Assembly: GCF_009914755.1 (NCBI RefSeq)
Contig: NC_060935.1
Source: the human T2T-CHM13v2.0 reference genome, Homo sapiens
Direction: 5' to 3' (one strand)
DNA length: 64,000 bases
A model generated the notes under the pieces. It worked only from the letters and a program-made list of their open reading frames with translations. It did no database searches and was not told the origin of the DNA. Each line of letters starts with the position of its first letter. The stretch's first letter is position 1. Shown here piece after piece: positions 5,963-57,737 of this stretch. The position numbers and the translations under genes are program-made.

Positions 5963-7019
5963 TCATCCAAGAAAGTACAACATTAGTGTTAGTGCCCAGG
6001 ATGTCACCCAGATGTGTGGTTAGTGTTGTGTGTAATCCCTGCCTTTACTAAAGATTCAAATGTCAATGAGTGCCTCTTTTTAGATAGACCTTGTACTAAA
6101 ACATGAGAGATATCATCAGTGAACTCTTGTAAAGCACCAAATTTTGGCCCAGAAAATAAATTACAAAATTATTGATTAAGCACTTATTGTATGATGTTGT
6201 CATACAGAAGCAGGACATGCAGAGAGGCCATGTTCTCCAGGAGCATGAACAGAGAGGACAGGTCAGCTCCAGGGGATGTCAGGTCGGAGCTGCCCACGGA
6301 GAGCCACAGGTCCCTGGGAAAGGGGAGATCCAGGGAGTTGGAGGGGCCAGCAAAGAACACAAGGTGTGAGCTGCTTTGATGTGGCTTCCAGAATGAATGA
6401 AGCGTTTCAACCCAGAGTGACTAAGGCAAGGCAGTGGAGACCACAGGGAGCAGAGTAAAATTGTTCAATTACTGTAAGGTAAAATTGCAAAGTAAACGTA
6501 AATTATTTCAATAATTTCTCAAGCAGAAAACTGCGGGTCTTGTGCAGAAATCCACACGGAGTTCCCACAGGGCAGCAGTGGGTGTCAAGGTCACCAGGAT
6601 CCACCTGAACCATGGTGTGCAGGCTTCTCAGTGTCCAGCCAAGGAGGGAAATAGTGTTGACAGCAGCTTGTGGAGGCAGAACACCTGGCTTCATATCCTG
6701 TTTCTGCCACTTCCCAGCTGTGTCCCAAAAAGTTCTATGGAATCTCTGTGTCCTTTCTCCTGTAGCTGGGGTGAAATGATCTGCCCACTTCACAGGGTGG
6801 TGATCACACATCCAGTTTGCTCAGGACAGGCCTGGTTTACATTGTTATCCTGGCATCCCACCCATTTAGGGTTCCCTTTTATTCTCCAAAGTGCCCCTCA
6901 TTTACAATCAATAGCATGGTCACCCTGCTCATAGGATAATGGCTGTGAGATTCAAAGGGGCTTACAACAGTGCCCGTCATTTAGGAACTGGTGTAGAATT
7001 GTTTTTCATTCATATTTTA

Positions 7020-7225
7020 TTGAACATTTCCTGAAAGTTGCTAAACAATGAGATCTTAAATGTTCTTATCACAAAAAAAACAAGTGTGTGAGATGATGGT
7101 GTGTTAATTAGCTTGAATTAATCATTTCAGAATGTATATATACATCAAAACATATAAACCATAAATAAATATAATTTTTATTTGTCAATTTACCTTAGTA
7201 AAGCTGGGTAAAAAATTAAAAAATG
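7020..7225 (+). mobile_element. Old L1M 3'-end fragment
   Basis: GATCTTAAATGTTCTTATCACAAAAAA...GTTAATTAGCTTGA...TTTATTTGTCAATTTACCTTAGTAAAGCTGG pattern. Confidence 0.75.
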
Positions 7226-7340
7226 TATGTAAACATGTTCAATAAATTGGAACTGGTTTCTGGGAAGATTAATATGGTAATACTAAGTAGAAGATGCTTG
7301 GGTGATAAGTTATTTGTAAATTATTTCAATAAAACTCTGA

Positions 7341-7638
<298 letters not shown>

Positions 7639-9994
7639 TCATAAAACCAAAAAACCTCTGAGGAAAGGGGAACGCTGAAAAAAAATCAAATACACATGGA
7701 TCAAAACACAGAACTTTGTTTTCAAACTTAAAAGTTTTAGCTTATATCTGAATAGTTACTCAAATATTTTAGAGAATATTATGTGGAAGCCGAGTTTCAG
7801 TAGTGTCGAACAGTCCTAGTGGTCCTTGGAGTTTACCATAAATACATTTTTTTATTATTCAAAAATAATGGCTACCAGCTGACATCTGGATAGCACCTGC
7901 TTTGTGCCAAGCACTGTTCTCAGGACTTTCCACTTTTTACTTGTGAATCACAGCAATTCTATGACTGTTCCCATTTTAAAGGGAACACACAGCATTAAGT
8001 CTCCTGTCCAATGTGGCAGTCAGCAAACGGAGGAGCTGTGATGTGAACACAAGTGGTGGTCAGGCTCCGAGTCCTCACTCACCACCCACCTGCCATCCAA
8101 CCCTTACGAGAAAGGGCTGCAGAACCTGCAGAGATGGGACCCAGCAGTGCAACACAGCGGCGCTCAGCAGAGCTGCAGCTTCTCAGGCCCTCCCTTCCCA
8201 GATCCTTCCTGGGAGTCTTGGGAATGTCCAGCTGGGATGGGACTGCCCCATGGAATAAGGGATTTTATCCTTTCCTTACTTTTCAATCATCTGACTCCTC
8301 TGGGAGTCACCTCCGGCATCTTCTGAATTTATCCATCTTTAACCTACCTCTCCCTACCCACAGCCTCCCCTCAACCTCTGAGCCAGAGGACGTTTCTCCC
8401 ACTTAAGGGAAAGCACCCTTTCCCTCCTTTGGCCTTCCAGAGCCCTTCATCCATCTCTCTCTGCACCTCTCCTTTCCCGTCCGGGCTTATAGTCTCCTGT
8501 GTGTGTCTCCCCAGGCCTCTCAGAGGTACAGAGGGTCACAGGTCTCTTCTGACAATTGAGTGAGTATGAAAAACGCACCACCGTCACGTGCATCTTGGGT
8601 GTGTGTGTAAGGGGAAGGGGGTTCTTCCTTGGTTGCTGTAGACTCCCCATGGAAGCTACAGCCTCTCCTTTCCTCAGCCCCATTTCAGAAAGGAGAGGCC
8701 AGAAAGCGTTTCTGATGCTTGCGGTCTCTTTAGAGGATTCACCCTGTTCCCTTCACTCAATCCCAACCCCGTGTCACCAGATGTATTCACCCCTACGCAG
8801 GGGGAGGTCAGTCTTTGCAAGCTTCTGACACATTTTGGGACACTGAGCTGGAATATGGGGGTGCTGGGGTGGATTGAACACTGAGCAACTCAGACTTGGA
8901 ATCCCAGCATGAGGCTCGGGCGCGAGGGAGGCGCTGGGTCTAGACGAGGCCTTGGTGACTTGAACAACAGGCATATTGCTGCCAACAAAGATGGCTCCAA
9001 GACCAGAGGCCTTTCCTGAAGTTCTGTTCTGTGTAAGAAGGTGACTGACAAGGCAGGGCCACAAGGACTGGGGCACCAGGCAGAGCCCCAATAAGTACTG
9101 GCCAAGGAGACACTCTCACATTTCATAATCAAGGTCCTTCACTACCCTTGGGAAACAAGGCCACCAGCCAGGGTCAGCTGTGTACAGTGGTAAGTAAACA
9201 ACACTTCTCCTTTCTGTCCTCCCCAAAATTAGGTTTGTTCTTGGCCACTGAGGCTCCACCTGAATGGTGGAAAGAAACATGTCGCAAGTAATCCAGAGAG
9301 AAAACAATGCATTCACAGGGAATTAACAATGGATTCATTCCTCTGGCTGTTTCATCGACTTCTTTTTTTTTCTTTTTTCTTTTTTTACCTGAGCCAACTT
9401 TGTTTTTCTTGTTCCTATGACCTTCACTGTGCCCCTAATTAAACAGGGATGGGCTTTCTATCATGTGAGGCTGTCCCGTCCTTTTCCTGATTCTATGTGG
9501 CCACGTTCCTTCCCTTCCTTACCTTGCCAGTGCCATCTGTCCTCAAGCTTCTGTACTTGCAGTTCCCTCTCCCTGGAATTCTCTTCCCCAGATGTGTCCT
9601 TGGACATCACCATCCACTCATCCAAGTCTCAGCTGAAACAGCACCTGCTCCTACAGGCTGCCTTGGGGGGCTTACAGGCCACTGCCCCTGGGCAGGCCAT
9701 CTATGACAGCATTCAGCTGTTGTGAATATTTTGTTGTTCTTTGCAGCAATGACCACTTTCTCATACCTCTGATATATCTTTAGTCTTGTTCTTTGTGTCC
9801 TTCATTAGAAAATAAGGTCCACAGGAGCAAGCACCTGGTCTAACCTGTTTCTATAACTGAATCTAGTGCAAGGCCCAGCTCACAGGAGAAGCAAAACAGT
9901 GATGCGTACAACAAGGGATCCACGCATGAATGCAACTGCCATTTATTCAGAATTATCTCATGCTTGGCTGCGTGATTAAAAATTTACAGAGCGT

Positions 9995-52380: not shown

Positions 52381-55007
52381 TAAAGTATATCTTCAATGGA
52401 TCTCAATTTTCTTTTAATGAAATAAAGCTCAATATCTCAATTCATAAATTAGAATATTCAAGTTTTTGTAATAATCACAACCTCACATTGTTTAAGAATA
52501 CATGTTGTTTTCTTTCTTTCTTTATACTTCCATCTATTCTCTCCCAATGAACTAACCATGGTTTCTGACAGAGTTAGAATCTAGGAAAAGAGGAAAGAGA
52601 AGGAAATCAGAAAGCTCTGAATTAACTTGCCCTTTTTTGTGATTGGTTCAGGCTCTCTGGGTCTGTCAGATGCTTTGTGTCCTGGACAGTTCCATGAGTG
52701 CTTCTGAAAGCCCACACTACCTAGGTAATTTTCTAGAATAAAAAGATTGAAAAATCTATAGAAATCCACTGATTTCCCATACCAAAACAATTTTGATCAT
52801 ATTTTGGAACATCATCTTAAATAAAAGCCCCCCACTTTTTTTTTGGAAGAAACAGCTAGACACTTACAAGAATGGAGAATAATAATGGAACCAACACAAG
52901 AACAGGAAGGCAGAGCAGTAACACTCAGAATTCAGAGTATTTCAACCTGTAATTCTACACAGATGTGAATCTACATCCAGGCTACAATTATTCAAGCATG
53001 AAGACAAAATAAAGATATTTTCAGGCATGCAAATCTGCAAACATTTTATCACCAATGAACTTCTTTTCAGAAAGTTATTGTAGGATATGCTCCACCAAAA
53101 AGAAGTAGAACAAGAAAGGCAAAGATGTGGGATTGGATACACAGGGATTATAATAGGAGTTACTGGATACATCAACAGAACAGCGAGAAAAGATTATTGA
53201 GAACACGGAAATACCCCCACAGGAAAACAAGCTGAAAGTGAGAATGGGACTGGGAGGTCTGCAGAGGAAGGGCAAGGAATAATCACTTTTAATAAAACAC
53301 TTTTTTGCATTATATTCCTTTTCAAAACATGCATCTATATCAACTTTTTAAAAATTAAAACTGTAAAAAAAAAAGGATGTTGGAAAACAAATAAAAAGGA
53401 AAGGGAGCATAGAAGAAAAGGGGCAAAAAAGTGGGCAGAGAGGAGATAATTTGGCAAAAAGAAGTTAAGAAGATGCAAATGGCCTCAGGTCAAAGCAGAA
53501 TCTACACCACACTGTACCATGGAGGAAGATAGTATATTTTGTTGAAAGAATTAATGAATTTCCTTAAAGAATTAATTAGCAAGTTGAATGGGAAGACAGG
53601 ATGTAGAACTAAAGAAAGACACAATGTATATCACTGAGATGAGATCTTACTACACAAATTAAAAGCCTGCAGACATTCAAGGAAATATCAAGGAAGGCTT
53701 GCAGAAGAGGTGATGGCTGAGTTGGACCATGAAGCACCGAGAAGATGAGGATGGCAAGCAGAGGAAGCAGGGCCTCCAGATGCATGGAGCAGCCTGGGCA
53801 AAGGCATGGACAGAAGGCTGAGCCAGCCCCCTGGAGGACAAAGATGACCACACTCCTTTTGGCATCTTGAAGGCTCACAGATATTTCTCTAGCACAGGGT
53901 TTCTCAATCTTAGCAGTAGTGACATAGAGGGCAAGTAATCCTTTCTTGTGGGATCTGTCTTGTGCATTGTAGGAGGTTCAGCAGCACCCCTGTTCTCTGC
54001 CCACTTGATGCCAATAGTATCTGGGCTGCCATACAGCTGTGACAACCAAAAACATCTCCAGACTAATGTCTTCAGGGATGGGGAAAGTTGGGAGTAGATG
54101 TGTCCTAGTTGAAAGTCACTGCTTTGGAGTGGGAAACCTTGTCAGTTCTGCTATACAACTATACTAATACTTCTAATGATCAGACTTTCACAAAGTTGGA
54201 ATTACTACAGGTACAAGAAAATAGGGACATTGAAAATAAAACAAATACCAACTTGATGATGAAAATGTTAGTGCAGATATTTGAAGAACCAAATCAGCAG
54301 TCATACATGTACAGGATTAACTTTTAACCACATACTATAGGGAAATGTCAGGTTGAGTAAAGTTCAGGGTTTGGTGAGGGAGCCAAGGAGAATTAGCCAG
54401 GGGCTGACACCTGATTCTGGCTCTGCTTCCAAATTCAGCTCCTGGTCCAAACTCATTAGATAAATCCAAGTCATATGCTGTTATGGTAACAGTCACTTTT
54501 GGGGAAAAAGGACACTGAGGTGGCCTAGGCACTGGTGGTACAGTCTCCAACTACCTCTTCTTTTAGCTGATTTCTTCCCACCCTGATCCCAAAGTCCTCA
54601 CCCAAGAAAGAACATCATTGGTGTTAGTGTCCAGAATGTGACTGTGATGTGTGGTTAGTGTTGCATCTGATTCCTGCCTTTACTAAAGATTCAAGTGTAG
54701 ATGAGCACCTATTTCTAAATACACCTTATAACATAACATGTAATATCATCAGTGAACTCTTGCAAACAGCAAATTCTGCTCTGAAAAATAATTAAAAATT
54801 GTTCATTAGGCCCATACCATATGATGTTGCCATGCAAAGAGAGGATGTGCACAGGACTTGCTCTCAAGAAGCATGAACAGAAAGGAGGAGTTAACATCAG
54901 GGATCTGGAGATGTCAGAAGGGAGCTGCCCACAGAGAGCCACAGGGTCCTGTGAAGGAGGAGATCCCTGGAGATGCAGGGATCAGCAAAGAACACAAGAC
55001 CTGCGTG

Positions 55008-57587
55008 TGTAGAGAGCCAAAGGTCCATGGATCATGACCAACTCAGCATTCCACTGGAGGCTATATGATCAAACAGCAAACTGTTTATCATGAATGCAGG
55101 ATGTGGGCAAACTTGTGACTGCACCTGCCACCAGAAGGTTTGCTGAGGGCAATCACTCCGTGGCACCATGCTCCTTGATGTTACCTACTGGGACATCTAG
55201 AGCCTACTGTTTGAAGAATGCAGTCTTGCAAGCCTGCTGTAAATCAAGCTGCTGACCAACAACCACACCCCCCTTCTCGCTATCTCTTTTACCTAATAAA
55301 TACGATGGGCTGTAAAAGCTTAGGGCCCTTGTTCACTAGAAGCAAGGAGCCCCCTGACCCCTTCTTCCAAATATACTCTCCTGTCTTTATCTTTATTCCT
55401 GTGTTCATCCCCCTTTGTTCAGTCCAACAGGGACTGGGGCTGTGTCAAGTGGCGCCTGAACAGGGACTTCGAGGACATGAACAAAAAAGGTCTGCTGGAG
55501 CAGAGGAACTGAAGTTGACAAGACAAACAGGGACCCTGGGATGAGTCTGCCAGCAGTGGATATAAGGCCAGTGCCCTAAAGAGGTACTGGGAGTGAAACA
55601 AGGTCAGTGCTCTAAAGAAGTACTGGGAATGGGAAGTTTTCTGAATCAGGGTAACATGGGACAGAATTTGTCTATTGAAGAAAAATATTATGTGCAGTTT
55701 CTTAAAGTTCTGTTGAGACAGTTTGGAGCTCAGGTTAATTCGCAGACACTAAGTTTCTGCAGGAAGTTATTATGCATAATCCATGGTTTTCACAGGCAGG
55801 CACTCTTGATGTGGAAAATTGGGACAGAGCAGAAGGATTAAAACAGGCTCATCAAAAAGGTCTTAAAGTTGATTCTTCTGTTTTCTCCACTTGGAGTTTG
55901 GTCCATACTCTCCTTCTGCCATTATCTCCTTCTTATTCTGCTGGACAGCAGGTGTCATGTTTTAAGTCTAAAAATCTGAAAGAATCTTTGAAAATAAAAA
56001 ACAGGAGAGGGAGGATAAAAATTGGCCTATACCACCCCTCCAATAGCAGAAACATCTGTACCGCCTCCTTCAGTAGCAGAAATAGAGACCCCAATACAAA
56101 GAATGTTATACTCTGCTGCCATAGCTAGAGAGCCCTTAGGACCTTGTGTTTTTCCTATTTCCATAAGTCATGATCCAAATAATCCACTGCAGTGTACTCA
56201 TGAACACATCCCCCATCTAGAGTTTAAGTTGTTGAAGGAATTAAAAACTAATGTAGTTAATAATGGGATACAGAGCCCATTCACTTTAGGATTGCTAGAA
56301 TCTGTATTTGGTGCTATGCGCTTTCTAACCTTTGATGTAAAACACTTGGCTTGAACTTGTTTGTCTGTTAGTGCATATCTGACATGAAATTTAAATTGGC
56401 AAGAAATGTTTGCAGACCAGGCTAGACAGAACTGTGCTGCTGGACACGGAGACATTACAGAGAATATGCTCTTAGGTAATGGTCCTTATTCAGACCTGGA
56501 ACATCAAATGGCACTCCCAGACCCTGCTTATCAGCAGTGTGCACAGGCCACTAAATGTGCCTTGGCCACAATTCCTGAAGACGGAGTCCCAGTACAATCC
56601 TTTCTACATATCATGAAAGGGTCACAGGAGCCCAATGCACAATTTCTTTCAAGATTACAAGCAGTAGTGAAGCGTCAAACTCCTCATACCACTGCTGCAG
56701 AAATGCTAACCTTATCTTTAGCTTTTGAGAATTCAAATGCGGATTGTAAATGTGCACTGGCACCTGTGAGGTGTACAAAAAACTTGGGAAATTTTCTCAG
56801 AGCTTGTCAGGATGTAGGAACTGAGCTTCATCACTCTGCAATTTTAGCTCAAGCAATGGCTAATTTAGTAATTGACAATTCTGAAAGGAGCCAAGGATTA
56901 AGCCCAAAAGTAGGAAAATGTTATAATTGTGGAAAAACTGGACATTTTAAAAAGGAATGCTGCCAGATCTCAGGACATAAAGGGTCTTATAATGCAGTTC
57001 CCCCACCAGTGGAAAAAACTCCAGGACTCTGTCCTTGCTGTAACAAAGAAAATCATTGGGCTAATGAATGCCGCTCAAAATTTCATCAAAATGGCACCCC
57101 CCCATCAGGAAATGAGAAAGGGATCCGGACCCGGGCACCTCAAACAATGAGGGCATTCCCAGTTCAGACCACAACCCTGTCTCAGGGATGGGTCCCAGGA
57201 GAAGCATTGATTCCCTCACTCCAGGAACACCAGGAAATGCAGGATTAGATCTCCCAGTCAGAAAAAAAATTACATTAGACAAACCTATCAAAGTTCCACT
57301 GGCATTTGGGGACATTTACCAGCAGGATACATGGGACTAATTTTAGGCAAAAGCTGCCTTAACTTGCAAGACTGCATCCTTCAAACAGTAGGCTCTAGAT
57401 GTCAAAGTAGATAACATCAAGGAGCATGGCACCAGGGAGTGATTGCCCTCAGCAAACCTTCTGGTGGCAGGTGCAGTAGCGAGTTTGCCCACATCCTGCA
57501 TTCATGATAAACAGTTTGCTGTTTGATCATATAGCCTCCAGTGGAATGCTGAGTTGGTCACAACCCACAGGCCTTCAGCTCTCTACA
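55008..57587 (+). mobile_element. HERV-K(HML-6)/HERVK3 element: 5' LTR3 (55008-55447), PBS-Lys3, gag, start of dUTPase/pro, then an inverted partial LTR (57363-57587)
   Basis: TG..CA LTR with AATAAA; PBS TGGCGCCTGAACAGGGAC (55450-55467); MGQNLS gag start at 55656; two CCHC knuckles; dUTPase motifs AGLDL and GLILGKS; TSD TGCGTG/TGTGTG. Confidence 0.9.
55656..57248 (+). pseudogene. HML-6 gag pseudogene (frameshifted MA/CA; 280-codon open CA C-terminus and NC at 56406-57248)
   Basis: MHR-like IMKGSQEPNAQFLSRL; zinc knuckles CYNCGKTGHFKKEC and CPCCNKENHWANEC; upstream stops and frameshifts. Confidence 0.88.
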
Positions 57588-57737
57588 TGTGTGGTCCTTG
57601 ATGTGCTTTCAGGAATGAATGAAGTGGTTCAATCCAGAGTGACTGAGTCAAGGGCAGTGGAAGAGGGGTGTCCACAGGGAGCAAAGATCCCAAGCAAAAA
57701 ACTATGGGGCTTGTTCAGAAATAAATCCTGAGTTCAC

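What the first reader, a model, noticed from the sequence alone, without database searches (positions are those of the whole stretch)
55002..57593. HML-6 provirus with two U3 ends: inverted LTR joined at an 8-bp palindrome and bounded by a 6-bp TSD
Seen: instead of pol-env-3'LTR, the element switches inside the dUTPase/pro frame (..GLILGKSCLNLQ) to the reverse complement of the first 225 bp of its own 5' LTR (57363-57587 vs 55008-55232; about 18 differences by my count, many of them CpG-type). The junction is exactly CTTGCAAG, a self-complementary 8-mer that reads in frame in pro (57363-57370) and also occurs in U3 (55225-55232). The element starts TGTAGAGAG and ends CTCTCTACA. It is flanked by TGCGTG/TGTGTG (one CpG-type change), and duplicon copy A shows the empty site near 6365. 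Known: betaretrovirus-like integrases typically make 6-bp TSDs. Inference: a fold-back strand switch during reverse transcription produced a cDNA with terminal inverted U3 ends, which integrase inserted normally. The result has DNA-transposon-like architecture, convergent U3 enhancers, and a 225-bp dsRNA stem if read through.
Basis: partly seen in the sequence, partly recalled or inferred. Interest (0 to 1): 0.85.

Follow-up and report, generated by a model that had tools for sequence, protein, structure and literature searches.

The report
Ancient provirus with two U3 ends
A roughly 20-30-million-year-old truncated endogenous retrovirus ends in a backwards copy of the start of its own first LTR yet has a normal target-site duplication, so it went in as one malformed viral DNA; this rare structure has at least one published relative.

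Summary
A 225-nt inverted repeat, 92% complementary with 18 differences, joins LTR nt 1-225 (55008-55232) to 57363-57587. The junction is CTTGCAAG. All 7 other pro copies examined carry this 8-mer and then continue as normal dUTPase/pro. The element runs TGTAGAGAG…CTCTCTACA between TGCGTG and TGTGTG. LTR3 solo LTRs here make 6-bp duplications (15 of 22 usable loci). The paralogous duplicon shows an uninterrupted empty site. No pol, env or 3' LTR remnant lies in the window.

The arms are each other's closest relatives (ML support 88/70). Their 8% divergence lies within the range of ordinary HML-6 LTR pairs. Best reading: one integrase-mediated insertion of an aberrant viral DNA with U3 termini at both ends, made by an inverted template switch before integration.

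The structure is not unprecedented. The published HML-2 locus HERV-K124 proved here to have the same design: inverted LTR nt 1-78 at its 3' end and a perfect 6-bp duplication. It also carries an exact repeat of the gag-plus-inverted-U3 unit, which favours repeated switching during reverse transcription. Hughes and Coffin (2002, not readable here) titled a related element "resembles a DNA transposon".

Verdict: real, well explained, and a new member of a known rare kind.

The parts
55002..55007 (.). Left copy of the 6-bp target-site duplication (TGCGTG)
   Evidence: It matches 57588-57593 at 5 of 6 positions; the mismatch is C/T in a CpG.
55008..55447 (+). Complete 5' LTR (440 bp, TGTAGAG...GTGTCA), LTR3-type
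   Evidence: It is 82-89% identical to 39 other genomic copies. AATAAA lies at 55295-55300. The U3/R boundary was not mapped here.
55008..55232 (+). Left arm of the inverted repeat (LTR nt 1-225, U3 by position)
   Evidence: 225 nt, 92%; 18 differences.
55225..55232 (.). U3 copy of the palindromic 8-mer CTTGCAAG
   Evidence: The same 8-mer is present at this place in 12 of 30 other LTR3 copies.
55450..55467 (+). Primer-binding site TGGCGCCTGAACAGGGAC, two bases after the LTR
   Evidence: Read. The assignment to a lysine tRNA is recalled and was not tested.
55656..57248 (+). gag, broken by stops and frameshifts into several frames
   Evidence: ORFs. Pfam hits: Gag_p10 (E 5.3e-10), Gag_p24 in two pieces (9.6e-09, 3.1e-10), Gag_p24_C (1.2e-15), zf-CCHC_5 (1.1e-12) and zf-CCHC (9.3e-06).
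57116..57370 (+). Start of pro (dUTPase domain), in two frames, cut off at the junction
   Evidence: …GLILGKSCLNLQ. Weak dUTPase hits, E 0.028-0.068. The homologous ORF in L045 is dUTPase at E 5.9e-21.
57363..57370 (.). Junction: CTTGCAAG shared by pro and inverted U3 (8-bp microhomology)
   Evidence: 7 of 7 other pro copies carry it and then continue as pro. In one search only the window matches the whole 131-nt junction probe, among 40 scored of 134 candidates.
57363..57587 (-). Right arm: reverse complement of LTR nt 1-225, ending exactly at LTR nt 1 (…CTCTCTACA)
57588..57593 (.). Right copy of the target-site duplication (TGTGTG)
6363..6376 (.). Empty site in the paralogous duplicon
   Evidence: flank matches end at 6363 and resume at 6376; alignment shows a single GTGTG-type site.

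Best explanation
This is a fossil of a single, otherwise normal, integrase-mediated insertion of a malformed betaretroviral (HERV-K HML-6 type) DNA that carried a U3 terminus at both ends. Before integration, a growing DNA strand left its template at CTTGCAAG and resumed on a template of the same sense. This joined LTR nt 225-1, in reverse, to the dUTPase part of pro. Everything from mid-pro to the 3' LTR was never included.

The most likely form of the switch is that nascent plus-strand DNA, started at the polypurine tract, had copied U3 nt 1-225. It then annealed through the self-complementary 8-mer to plus-sense pro sequence and copied it leftwards. The resulting duplex had two identical U3 attachment ends. 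The intasome processed both ends and joined them to the target 6 bp apart.

Shown: the architecture, the exact termini, the duplication, the empty site and the microhomology. Inferred: the timing before integration, and the strand and template of the switch. Since insertion the element has decayed as neutral DNA for roughly 19-33 million years. No present function is indicated.
For: 1. Both ends are exact LTR nt 1 termini (TG…CA) next to a 5-of-6 hexamer repeat.
2. A 6-bp duplication is the rule for this family. Of 30 LTR3 loci examined, 22 had a clear 5' end. Of those, 10 show 6/6 and 5 show 5/6 directly after a terminal CA. Five of the others are proviral LTRs whose partner flank was not in the locus. 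One other (L032) has 5/6 after TA and one candidate (L036) is doubtful.
3. The paralogous duplicon is colinear across the site with one copy of the hexamer-like sequence, so no host DNA was lost or rearranged.
4. HML-6 homology in the 64-kb window is confined to 55008-57368 (+) and 57363-57587 (-). There are no pol, env or 3' LTR pieces.
5. The arms are nearest to each other: 8.0% against 8.5-17.9% to 30 other copies. They are sisters in an ML tree, with ultrafast bootstrap 88, SH-aLRT 70, and 90% of 200 bootstrap trees.
6. The 8.0% lies inside the 5'/3' LTR divergence of ordinary HML-6 proviruses over the same segment: 2.7-10.3% in 5 of 6, with one outlier at 21.5%.
7. The 8-bp microhomology is real: 7 of 7 other pro copies have the 8-mer and then continue as pro.
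8. An independent locus, HERV-K124 (HML-2), has the same design. Inverted LTR nt 1-78 lies at the 3' end, 100% complementary. It runs TGTGGGG…CCCCACA between perfect GTTCTT repeats.
9. K124 also has an exact 284-bp repeat of [206 bp gag + 78 bp inverted U3] whose right edge coincides with the viral terminus. Its homology at the switch point lies on the U3 side: 15/20 against 11/20. Repeated switching between the same two templates fits reverse transcription better than end joining.
10. Recombinant MMTV integrase performs concerted integration of two identical viral ends in vitro, and the same paper's Discussion lists MMTV among 6-bp viruses (PMC3790719, passages).
Against: No orthologous primate locus could be examined, so a post-integration origin is excluded only by parsimony.

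Arm sisterhood is only moderately supported. Just 3 variants are shared by both arms and rare elsewhere, and some unrelated pairs share as many or more.

The paralog is only 77-80% identical, so the empty site is resolved to within a few bases.

Nothing in this locus tells a reverse-transcriptase switch from host-mediated joining. The directional evidence comes from K124, a different HERV-K clade, and the flanks of the window's own 8-mer are uninformative.

That the 8-mer is a palindrome is not required by the model. It is the only palindrome among 23 inverted 8-mer matches in this element and among 63 in L045, and this remains unexplained.

Completing a fully double-stranded molecule with two U3 ends needs further strand transfers that are assumed, not shown.
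Confidence: 0.65

Rival explanations
1. Two separate viral DNA molecules each gave one U3 end to a single concerted integration. The two free tails were then trimmed and joined by host microhomology-mediated end joining at CTTGCAAG.
For: It gives the same termini, duplication and empty site. An 8-bp microhomology is typical of end joining. An HTLV-1c study treats 4-10 bp microhomologies as ambiguous between reverse-transcriptase switching and end joining (PMC13427564, passages).
Against: It needs two DNAs in one intasome and loss of most of one molecule, leaving only 225 nt. It does not explain K124's exact repeat of the gag-plus-inverted-U3 unit ending at the viral terminus. End joining has no reason to pick the palindrome either.
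Confidence: 0.15
2. Integrase inserted only the U3 end of a truncated viral DNA. A host polymerase then extended the free 3' end on the other strand of the viral DNA, making the inverted arm, and the second end was joined secondarily.
For: The Discussion of PMC5041404 (read in full) describes exactly such events. The free viral 3' end primes on host DNA or on either strand of viral DNA, usually with a short homology.
Against: That route joins the second end by homology to nearby host DNA and produces deletions or duplications of flanking DNA. Here the flank is colinear with the paralog and the duplication has the family's exact 6-bp length. Copying beyond LTR nt 1 into the joined left flank would give the reverse complement of the left flank. 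The observed right flank is instead the direct continuation of the target.
Confidence: 0.07
3. A normal provirus integrated and was rearranged later. The segment between the pro and 3'-LTR copies of the palindrome was inverted, and everything from inverted LTR nt 1 to the end of U5 was then deleted.
For: Because the 8-mer is a palindrome, such an inversion would create exactly the observed pro/inverted-U3 junction (my reasoning). Post-integration inverted duplications do occur at LTR3 loci: L012 has 254-nt arms at 94%.
Against: The deletion would need both breakpoints exact to the base, at LTR nt 1 and at the U5/host boundary. Eight base pairs is very short for recombination. No remnant of the missing 5-6 kb lies in the window. 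In the real post-integration case, L012, the inverted copy runs through the LTR end into the flank, unlike here. K124 shows the same exact termini independently.
Confidence: 0.06
4. Two independent insertions in opposite orientation, later fused by a deletion.
For: Many LTR3 copies are about equally distant from either arm: 8.5-9% against 8.0% between the arms.
Against: The outer flanks form one 5-of-6 hexamer repeat. The paralog shows no host DNA missing between them. The arms group together in the tree.
Confidence: 0.02
5. Assembly artefact (fold-back chimera).
For: None found. No second human assembly could be checked for this locus.
Against: The arms differ at 18 of 225 positions in CpG-decay patterns, whereas a chimeric fold-back would be identical. 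The analogous K124 has the same length in hg19 as published (968+1171+78+206+78) and in this assembly (L048 7165-9665).
Confidence: 0.01

Closest known systems
HERV-K124 (HML-2, 4q32.1; Shin et al. 2013, PMC3625200; also listed without comment on structure in Subramanian et al. 2011, PMC3228705)
   Same: It has a complete 5' LTR, part of gag, and then a truncated inverted copy of the start of the same LTR. It ends exactly at LTR nt 1 and has a 6-bp target-site duplication. The paper describes the 3' and internal LTRs as 'truncated and inverted' and calls the mechanism 'not clearly resolved' (passages).
   Different: It belongs to a different clade (HML-2) and is young, with arms 100% identical. 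Its arm is 78 nt, not 225. Its junction is in gag, with imperfect homology rather than an exact 8-bp palindrome. Its unit [206 bp gag + inverted arm] is present twice. The duplication and the exact terminus were worked out here. I did not see them stated in the passages I read, and the paper's Table S3 was not opened.
[quoted passage not shown]
   Different: It could not be read because it is not held. I cannot say which locus it covers, what structure it reports, or whether it proposes the same mechanism.
Complex LTR retrotransposon insertions made by template switching (Sabot and Schulman 2007, PMC1950507)
   Same: It uses the same logic: flanking duplications of family-typical length plus similar outer LTRs show that an aberrant reverse-transcription product was integrated as one unit (abstract and passages).
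   Different: Those are three-LTR elements with all LTRs in direct orientation, in plants. The word 'inverted' does not occur in the text.
Defective HIV-1 and HTLV-1 proviruses with inversions or asymmetric LTRs
   Same: Inversions occur in about 1-3% of sequenced proviruses: 1.9% in HTLV-1c and 2 of 78 in HIV-1. Asymmetric LTRs occur in 26 of 88 HIV-1 proviruses and are attributed to template switching.
   Different: [quoted passage not shown] One study discards reads with reverse-complement regions (PMC12657518). A two-U3-end provirus would therefore not be seen, and none is described in the passages I read.
Terminal-inverted-repeat DNA transposons and DIRS retrotransposons
   Same: Inverted terminal repeats are bounded by a target-site duplication. 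Retroviral integrases and DDE transposases use related chemistry (established knowledge, recalled).
   Different: There is no transposase or tyrosine recombinase here, only decayed gag and a pro fragment. There is a single copy in the genome and no sign of later mobility. The resemblance is one of form, produced by a replication accident.

Membership tests
HERV-K (HML-6) / LTR3 provirus | LTR with TG…CA ends followed by a primer-binding site | tested here: met
   5' LTR 55008-55447 (TGTAGAG…GTGTCA) and PBS 55450-55467. The tRNA type is recalled, not tested.
HERV-K (HML-6) / LTR3 provirus | Betaretrovirus-type gag and a dUTPase-bearing pro | tested here: met
   Gag_p10, Gag_p24, Gag_p24_C and two zinc knuckles. 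dUTPase is weak in the window and clear in the homologous L045 ORF.
HERV-K (HML-6) / LTR3 provirus | Sequence membership in the family named HML-6/LTR3 | tested here: inconclusive
The element is 82-89% identical to many genomic copies. No tool here names repeat families. That hit lies about 16 kb from the hg38 position of the named locus HML6_3p21.31c (PMC8275748). No liftover was done.
HERV-K (HML-6) / LTR3 provirus | Two LTRs in direct orientation | tested here: not met
   The only second LTR piece is nt 1-225 on the opposite strand. Of 9 sampled HML-6 proviruses, 6 have direct pairs, 3 have no second LTR in the fetched stretch, and 0 are inverted.
HERV-K (HML-6) / LTR3 provirus | 6-bp target-site duplication | tested here: met
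   TGCGTG/TGTGTG. Family rule: 15 of 22 usable LTR3 loci have 5 or more of 6 matches after a terminal CA.
Two-U3-end aberrant provirus (HERV-K124 type) | Starts at LTR nt 1 and ends at the reverse complement of LTR nt 1 | tested here: met
   TGTAGAGAG…CTCTCTACA. K124: TGTGGGG…CCCCACA.
Two-U3-end aberrant provirus (HERV-K124 type) | One insertion event: family-length duplication and an undisturbed target site | tested here: met
   using a paralog at 77-80% identity. Orthologous empty sites in other primates could not be tested with these tools.
Two-U3-end aberrant provirus (HERV-K124 type) | Arms identical at the time of insertion | tested here: inconclusive
   8.0% divergence lies within the range of normal LTR pairs. 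The arms are sisters at 88/70 support, but only 3 rare variants are shared. K124's arms are 100% identical.
Two-U3-end aberrant provirus (HERV-K124 type) | Internal-to-inverted-U3 junction with homology between donor and acceptor | tested here: met
   Exact 8 bp here. Imperfect 15/20 on the U3 side in K124.
Terminal-inverted-repeat DNA transposon | Encodes, or is mobilised by, a transposase and is present as a family of copies | tested here: not met
   Only gag and pro remnants are present. The junction is unique in the genome among 40 scored of 134 candidates.

The most novel reading that the evidence does not exclude
With K124, this locus defines a recurrent, mechanistically specific class of 'two-U3-end' proviruses. 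They arise when nascent plus-strand strong-stop DNA leaves U3 early and primes on plus-sense gag/pro sequence. HERV-K intasomes then integrate two U3 ends in vivo with a normal duplication. That would be natural germ-line evidence that a U5 end is dispensable for concerted retroviral integration. It would also be a one-step route from a retrovirus to an element with terminal inverted repeats. Current LTR-primed assays of HIV or HTLV reservoirs cannot detect this class.
Probability: 0.45. Interest if true: 0.55.

Novelty: new member of a known kind. Interest (0 to 1): 0.4.

Why it matters
It is a clean natural record that a betaretroviral integrase accepted two U3 ends and made a normal 6-bp duplication, which is otherwise known mainly from test-tube reactions with two identical ends.

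Together with K124, it suggests that inverted template switches between U3 and gag/pro recur across HERV-K clades separated by tens of millions of years.

Practically, such loci are mis-read by annotation as 'provirus lacking a 3' LTR plus an unrelated solo-LTR fragment'. They cannot be dated or typed as normal LTR pairs without recognising the inversion.

Primer-based provirus sequencing would also miss them (PMC9278108).

The 225-nt inverted repeat could form double-stranded RNA in read-through transcripts. Inverted LTR pairs are among host sources of Z-RNA that activate ZBP1 (PMC12711578, passages). Nothing here shows that this locus is transcribed.

Tried and rejected
Tools and papers that were unavailable:
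- The HML-6 group paper (Pisano et al. 2019, PMC6675890) was not held. Hughes and Coffin 2002 was not held either. Whether either lists this locus is therefore unknown.
- A search for 'HML-6' plus '11q12.3' found 6 papers and listed 5, none about this element by title or abstract start. The '11q12.3' of the HML-2 literature is a different provirus.

Steps that failed or were replaced:
The survey therefore rests on 9 loci plus the chromosome-12 provirus.
- A first, crude extraction of duplications extrapolated the LTR 3' ends wrongly. It was replaced by a search for the left hexamer after a terminal CA.
- Pfam gave nothing for the 53-aa pro piece at E 0.01 or below. A laxer scan and a homologue settled it.

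Analyses that gave weak or null results:
- Distances alone do not separate the arms from the closest other copies (8.0% against 8.5-9%). The count of rare shared variants is not exceptional.
- Homology beyond the window's 8-mer gave no direction for the switch.
- K124 did not appear among 150 scored Gag_p10 hits. It was found by offsetting coordinates from the neighbouring 4q32.3 provirus.

Models considered and rejected:
- An intramolecular hairpin with one duplex end, because a single joined 3' end should leave no duplication.
- Autointegration, because it places a U5 or U3 terminus, not LTR nt 225, against internal sequence.
- A head-to-head dimer at the palindrome followed by a deletion. 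This is possible but needs two rare steps.

No genome-wide survey for further members was possible, because searches score only the best 40-150 candidates.

Full report
**What is there**

The region 55002-57593 holds a truncated endogenous retrovirus.
- A complete 440-bp LTR (55008-47, TGTAGAG…GTGTCA) is followed two bases later by a primer-binding site (55450-67).
- Next comes a decayed gag starting at ATG 55656. Pfam recognises Gag_p10, Gag_p24 (two pieces in different frames), Gag_p24_C and two zinc knuckles.
- The first part of pro follows. Its frame reads …GYMGLILGKSCLNLQ.
- The homologous open frame in another copy (L045) is a clear dUTPase domain (E 5.9e-21). The window's own cut-off pieces reach only E 0.028-0.068.
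- At 57363 the sequence becomes the reverse complement of LTR nt 1-225. The repeat finder reports arms 55008-55232 and 57363-57587, 225 nt, 92% complementary.
- I count 18 differences, 14 of them transitions. Nine lie in CpG-decay patterns, including four places where one arm reads CA and the other TG.

**The junction**

The 8-mer CTTGCAAG is shared by pro (57363-70) and the LTR (55225-32).
- In all 7 other pro copies fetched (L002-L008) the same 8-mer stands at this place, and normal pro sequence follows. The window alone continues with inverted LTR.
- A 131-nt probe across the junction matches the genome end to end only at this locus. Another 29 matches stop at the 8-mer on the pro side and 10 start at it on the LTR side. 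This covers 40 scored of 134 candidates.
- The 8-mer is present in the LTR of 12 of 30 other copies.

**One insertion, with both ends made by integrase**

- The element begins at LTR nt 1 and ends at the reverse complement of LTR nt 1. It lies between TGCGTG and TGTGTG.
- I tested the family's duplication length directly. Of 30 LTR3 loci, 22 had a recognisable 5' end. Ten of these show an exact hexamer repeat right after a terminal CA, and five show 5 of 6.
- Of the remaining seven, five are LTRs of proviruses whose other flank was not in the locus. One has 5/6 after TA, and one candidate is doubtful.
- The window contains an older paralogous copy of the surrounding DNA at 77-80% identity. Homology runs up to 6363 and resumes at 6376. 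The paralog carries one GTGTG-type site where this locus has the element between two hexamers. No host DNA was lost, inverted or duplicated beyond the hexamer.
- Two natural HML-6 proviruses used as probes find nothing else of the virus in the 64-kb window: no pol, env or 3' LTR.

**Were the arms one sequence at insertion?**

- The arms are each other's nearest relatives, but only just: 8.0% against 8.5-17.9% for 30 other copies.
- A maximum-likelihood tree puts them together, with ultrafast bootstrap 88, SH-aLRT 70, and 90% of 200 bootstrap trees.
- Only three variants are shared by both arms and rare elsewhere, which is not exceptional among pairs.
- The 8.0% fits ordinary HML-6 proviruses. 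Their 5'/3' LTR pairs differ by 2.7-10.3% over the same segment in 5 of 6 cases, with one at 21.5%.
- With substitution rates of 0.13-0.23% per million years (recalled from the HERV literature), a Kimura distance of 0.086 gives about 19-33 million years.
- The divergence also rules out a fold-back assembly artefact, which would give identical arms.

**How unusual is it?**

Among 9 other HML-6 proviruses sampled, 6 have two LTRs in direct orientation. Three show no second LTR in the fetched stretch, and none has an inverted one. The chromosome-12 provirus also has direct LTRs.

A contrast case turned up by chance. At L012 an LTR3 copy is part of a 254-nt, 94% inverted duplication that runs through the LTR's 3' end into the flank. 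That is what a rearrangement after integration looks like. The element under study is instead bounded exactly at viral termini.

**A published relative**

Shin et al. 2013 (PMC3625200; passages read) describe HERV-K124, an HML-2 locus at 4q32.1.
- It has a 968-bp 5' LTR, 1171 bp of internal sequence, and two 78-bp LTR pieces that are 'truncated and inverted'.
- They call its origin 'not clearly resolved'. [quoted passage not shown] That paper is not held, so I know only its title and this citing sentence.

I located K124 in this genome (L048) and examined it.
- LTR nt 1-78 has two inverted copies, both 100% complementary.
- The element runs TGTGGGG…CCCCACA between perfect GTTCTT repeats. It therefore has the same architecture: two U3 termini and a 6-bp duplication.
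- It contains an exact 284-bp repeat of [206 bp gag + 78 bp inverted LTR] with 0 differences.
- The internal inverted terminus is followed by TT. This is the complement of the AA that precedes TGTGGGG at the polypurine-tract boundary of a natural HML-2 provirus (L052). It is also the first two bases of the gag segment that restarts there (L049 and L050), so the two readings cannot be separated.
- At the gag-to-LTR switch there is no exact microhomology. Instead there is imperfect homology on the LTR side: 15 of 20 against 11 of 20 on the gag side.

**Mechanism**

The robust conclusion is that an intasome joined two U3 ends to the target six bases apart. I put this at about 0.88.
- In vitro, MMTV integrase carries out concerted integration of two identical viral ends. 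The same paper's Discussion groups MMTV with the 6-bp viruses (PMC3790719, passages).

How the second U3 end became attached to pro is inferred.
- I favour a template switch during reverse transcription. K124 shows the same two templates used twice in succession, with the repeat ending at the viral terminus. Its homology also lies where it would if the strand that switched had just copied U3.
- This suggests that nascent plus-strand DNA, started at the polypurine tract, left U3 early (nt 225 here, nt 78 in K124). It then primed on plus-sense gag/pro sequence, such as the second packaged RNA or displaced plus-strand DNA.
- Further strand transfers are needed to finish a duplex with two U3 ends, and these are assumed.
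- A simple intramolecular hairpin is unlikely. It offers one duplex end and should leave no duplication.

**Rivals**

- Two viral DNAs each contributed a U3 end, and host end joining followed at the 8-bp homology (0.15).
- One-ended integration was followed by host-polymerase copying of viral DNA, as described by the Hughes laboratory (PMC5041404, Discussion read). That route produces flank deletions or duplications, which are absent here (0.07).
- A normal provirus was inverted and then deleted after integration. The palindrome would allow the inversion, but the deletion would need two base-exact breakpoints (0.06).
- Two independent insertions (0.02).
- Misassembly (0.01).

**Unexplained**

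The junction 8-mer is the only palindrome among 23 inverted 8-mer matches between the LTR and gag-pro in this element. It is also the only one among 63 in provirus L045. The model does not need a palindrome, and K124's junction is not one. This may be chance at a few per cent.

**Consequences today**

None are shown.
- The two arms would pair strongly as RNA (-405.7 kcal/mol against a mean of -89.7 for 20 shuffles).
- The left arm lies upstream of the LTR's AATAAA (55295-55300), so only read-through transcripts from upstream could contain both arms.
- Inverted LTR pairs are documented sources of Z-RNA (PMC12711578, passages). That makes the idea testable, not demonstrated.

**Comparison and novelty**

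- The logic 'family-length duplication plus matching outer LTRs means an aberrant reverse-transcription product integrated as a unit' is in print for direct-LTR complexes in cereals (PMC1950507).
- Inversions and asymmetric LTRs are known in HIV-1 and HTLV-1 proviruses. However, those assays cannot see a provirus lacking U5, or they discard reverse-complement reads.
- An inverted-LTR HERV-K element has been in the literature since 2002 and K124 since 2013.
- I found no description of this HML-6 locus. That rests on 10 full-text searches, and the two most relevant papers were unreadable.
- It is therefore a new, older member, from another clade, of a known rare kind.
The only check was that a pro-probe hit lies about 16 kb from the hg38 position of the named HML6_3p21.31c.

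Noticed in passing
L048 (G000:C4:164002000-164011900) 7159-9671: The published HML-2 locus HERV-K124 has a perfect 6-bp duplication (GTTCTT) around an element with two U3 termini. It also has an exact 284-bp repeat of [206 bp gag + 78 bp inverted LTR]. The internal inverted terminus is followed by TT, matching the dinucleotide next to U3 at the polypurine tract of a natural provirus.
   Followed up: yes
L012 (G000:C11:59656695-59660121) 1163-1416 and 1865-2118: An LTR3 copy whose first bases are replaced by AT-rich repeats sits inside a 254-nt, 94% inverted duplication. The duplication spans the LTR's 3' end and about 190 nt of flank. This is a rearrangement after integration and serves as a contrast to the finding.
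   Followed up: partly
L047 (G000:C8:46859950-46869850) 1408-1798 and 8821-9213: This HML-6 provirus has 5' and 3' LTRs that differ by 21.5%, far more than the other five pairs (2.7-10.3%). This suggests LTRs of different origin, through recombination or a mosaic.
   Followed up: no
window 55559-55630: Two tandem 36-nt copies (83% alike) lie in the leader between the primer-binding site and gag.
   Followed up: no
LTR3 loci L010-L038 and the alignment: LTR3 copies fall into two 5'-end types, TGTAGAGAGC and TGTTGGGAGC. The U3 8-mer is CTTGCAAG in 12 of 30 copies and a C(A/G)TGCA-type or TGTGCA-type variant in most others, which points to subfamilies.
   Followed up: no
G000:C11:62370857-62371096 (-), about 120 kb beyond the window; and G000:C11:62039430-62039833 (-), about 150 kb before it: A Gag_p10 hit (86.9 bits) is probably the HML-2 provirus that the literature calls 11q12.3. 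A further LTR3 copy lies upstream. Both are separate from the element studied.
   Followed up: no
L045 (G000:C5:72053008-72062900) about 1267-1600: This HML-6 provirus carries an Alu-like insertion in gag. The stretch matches about 25 Alu copies in the window.
   Followed up: no
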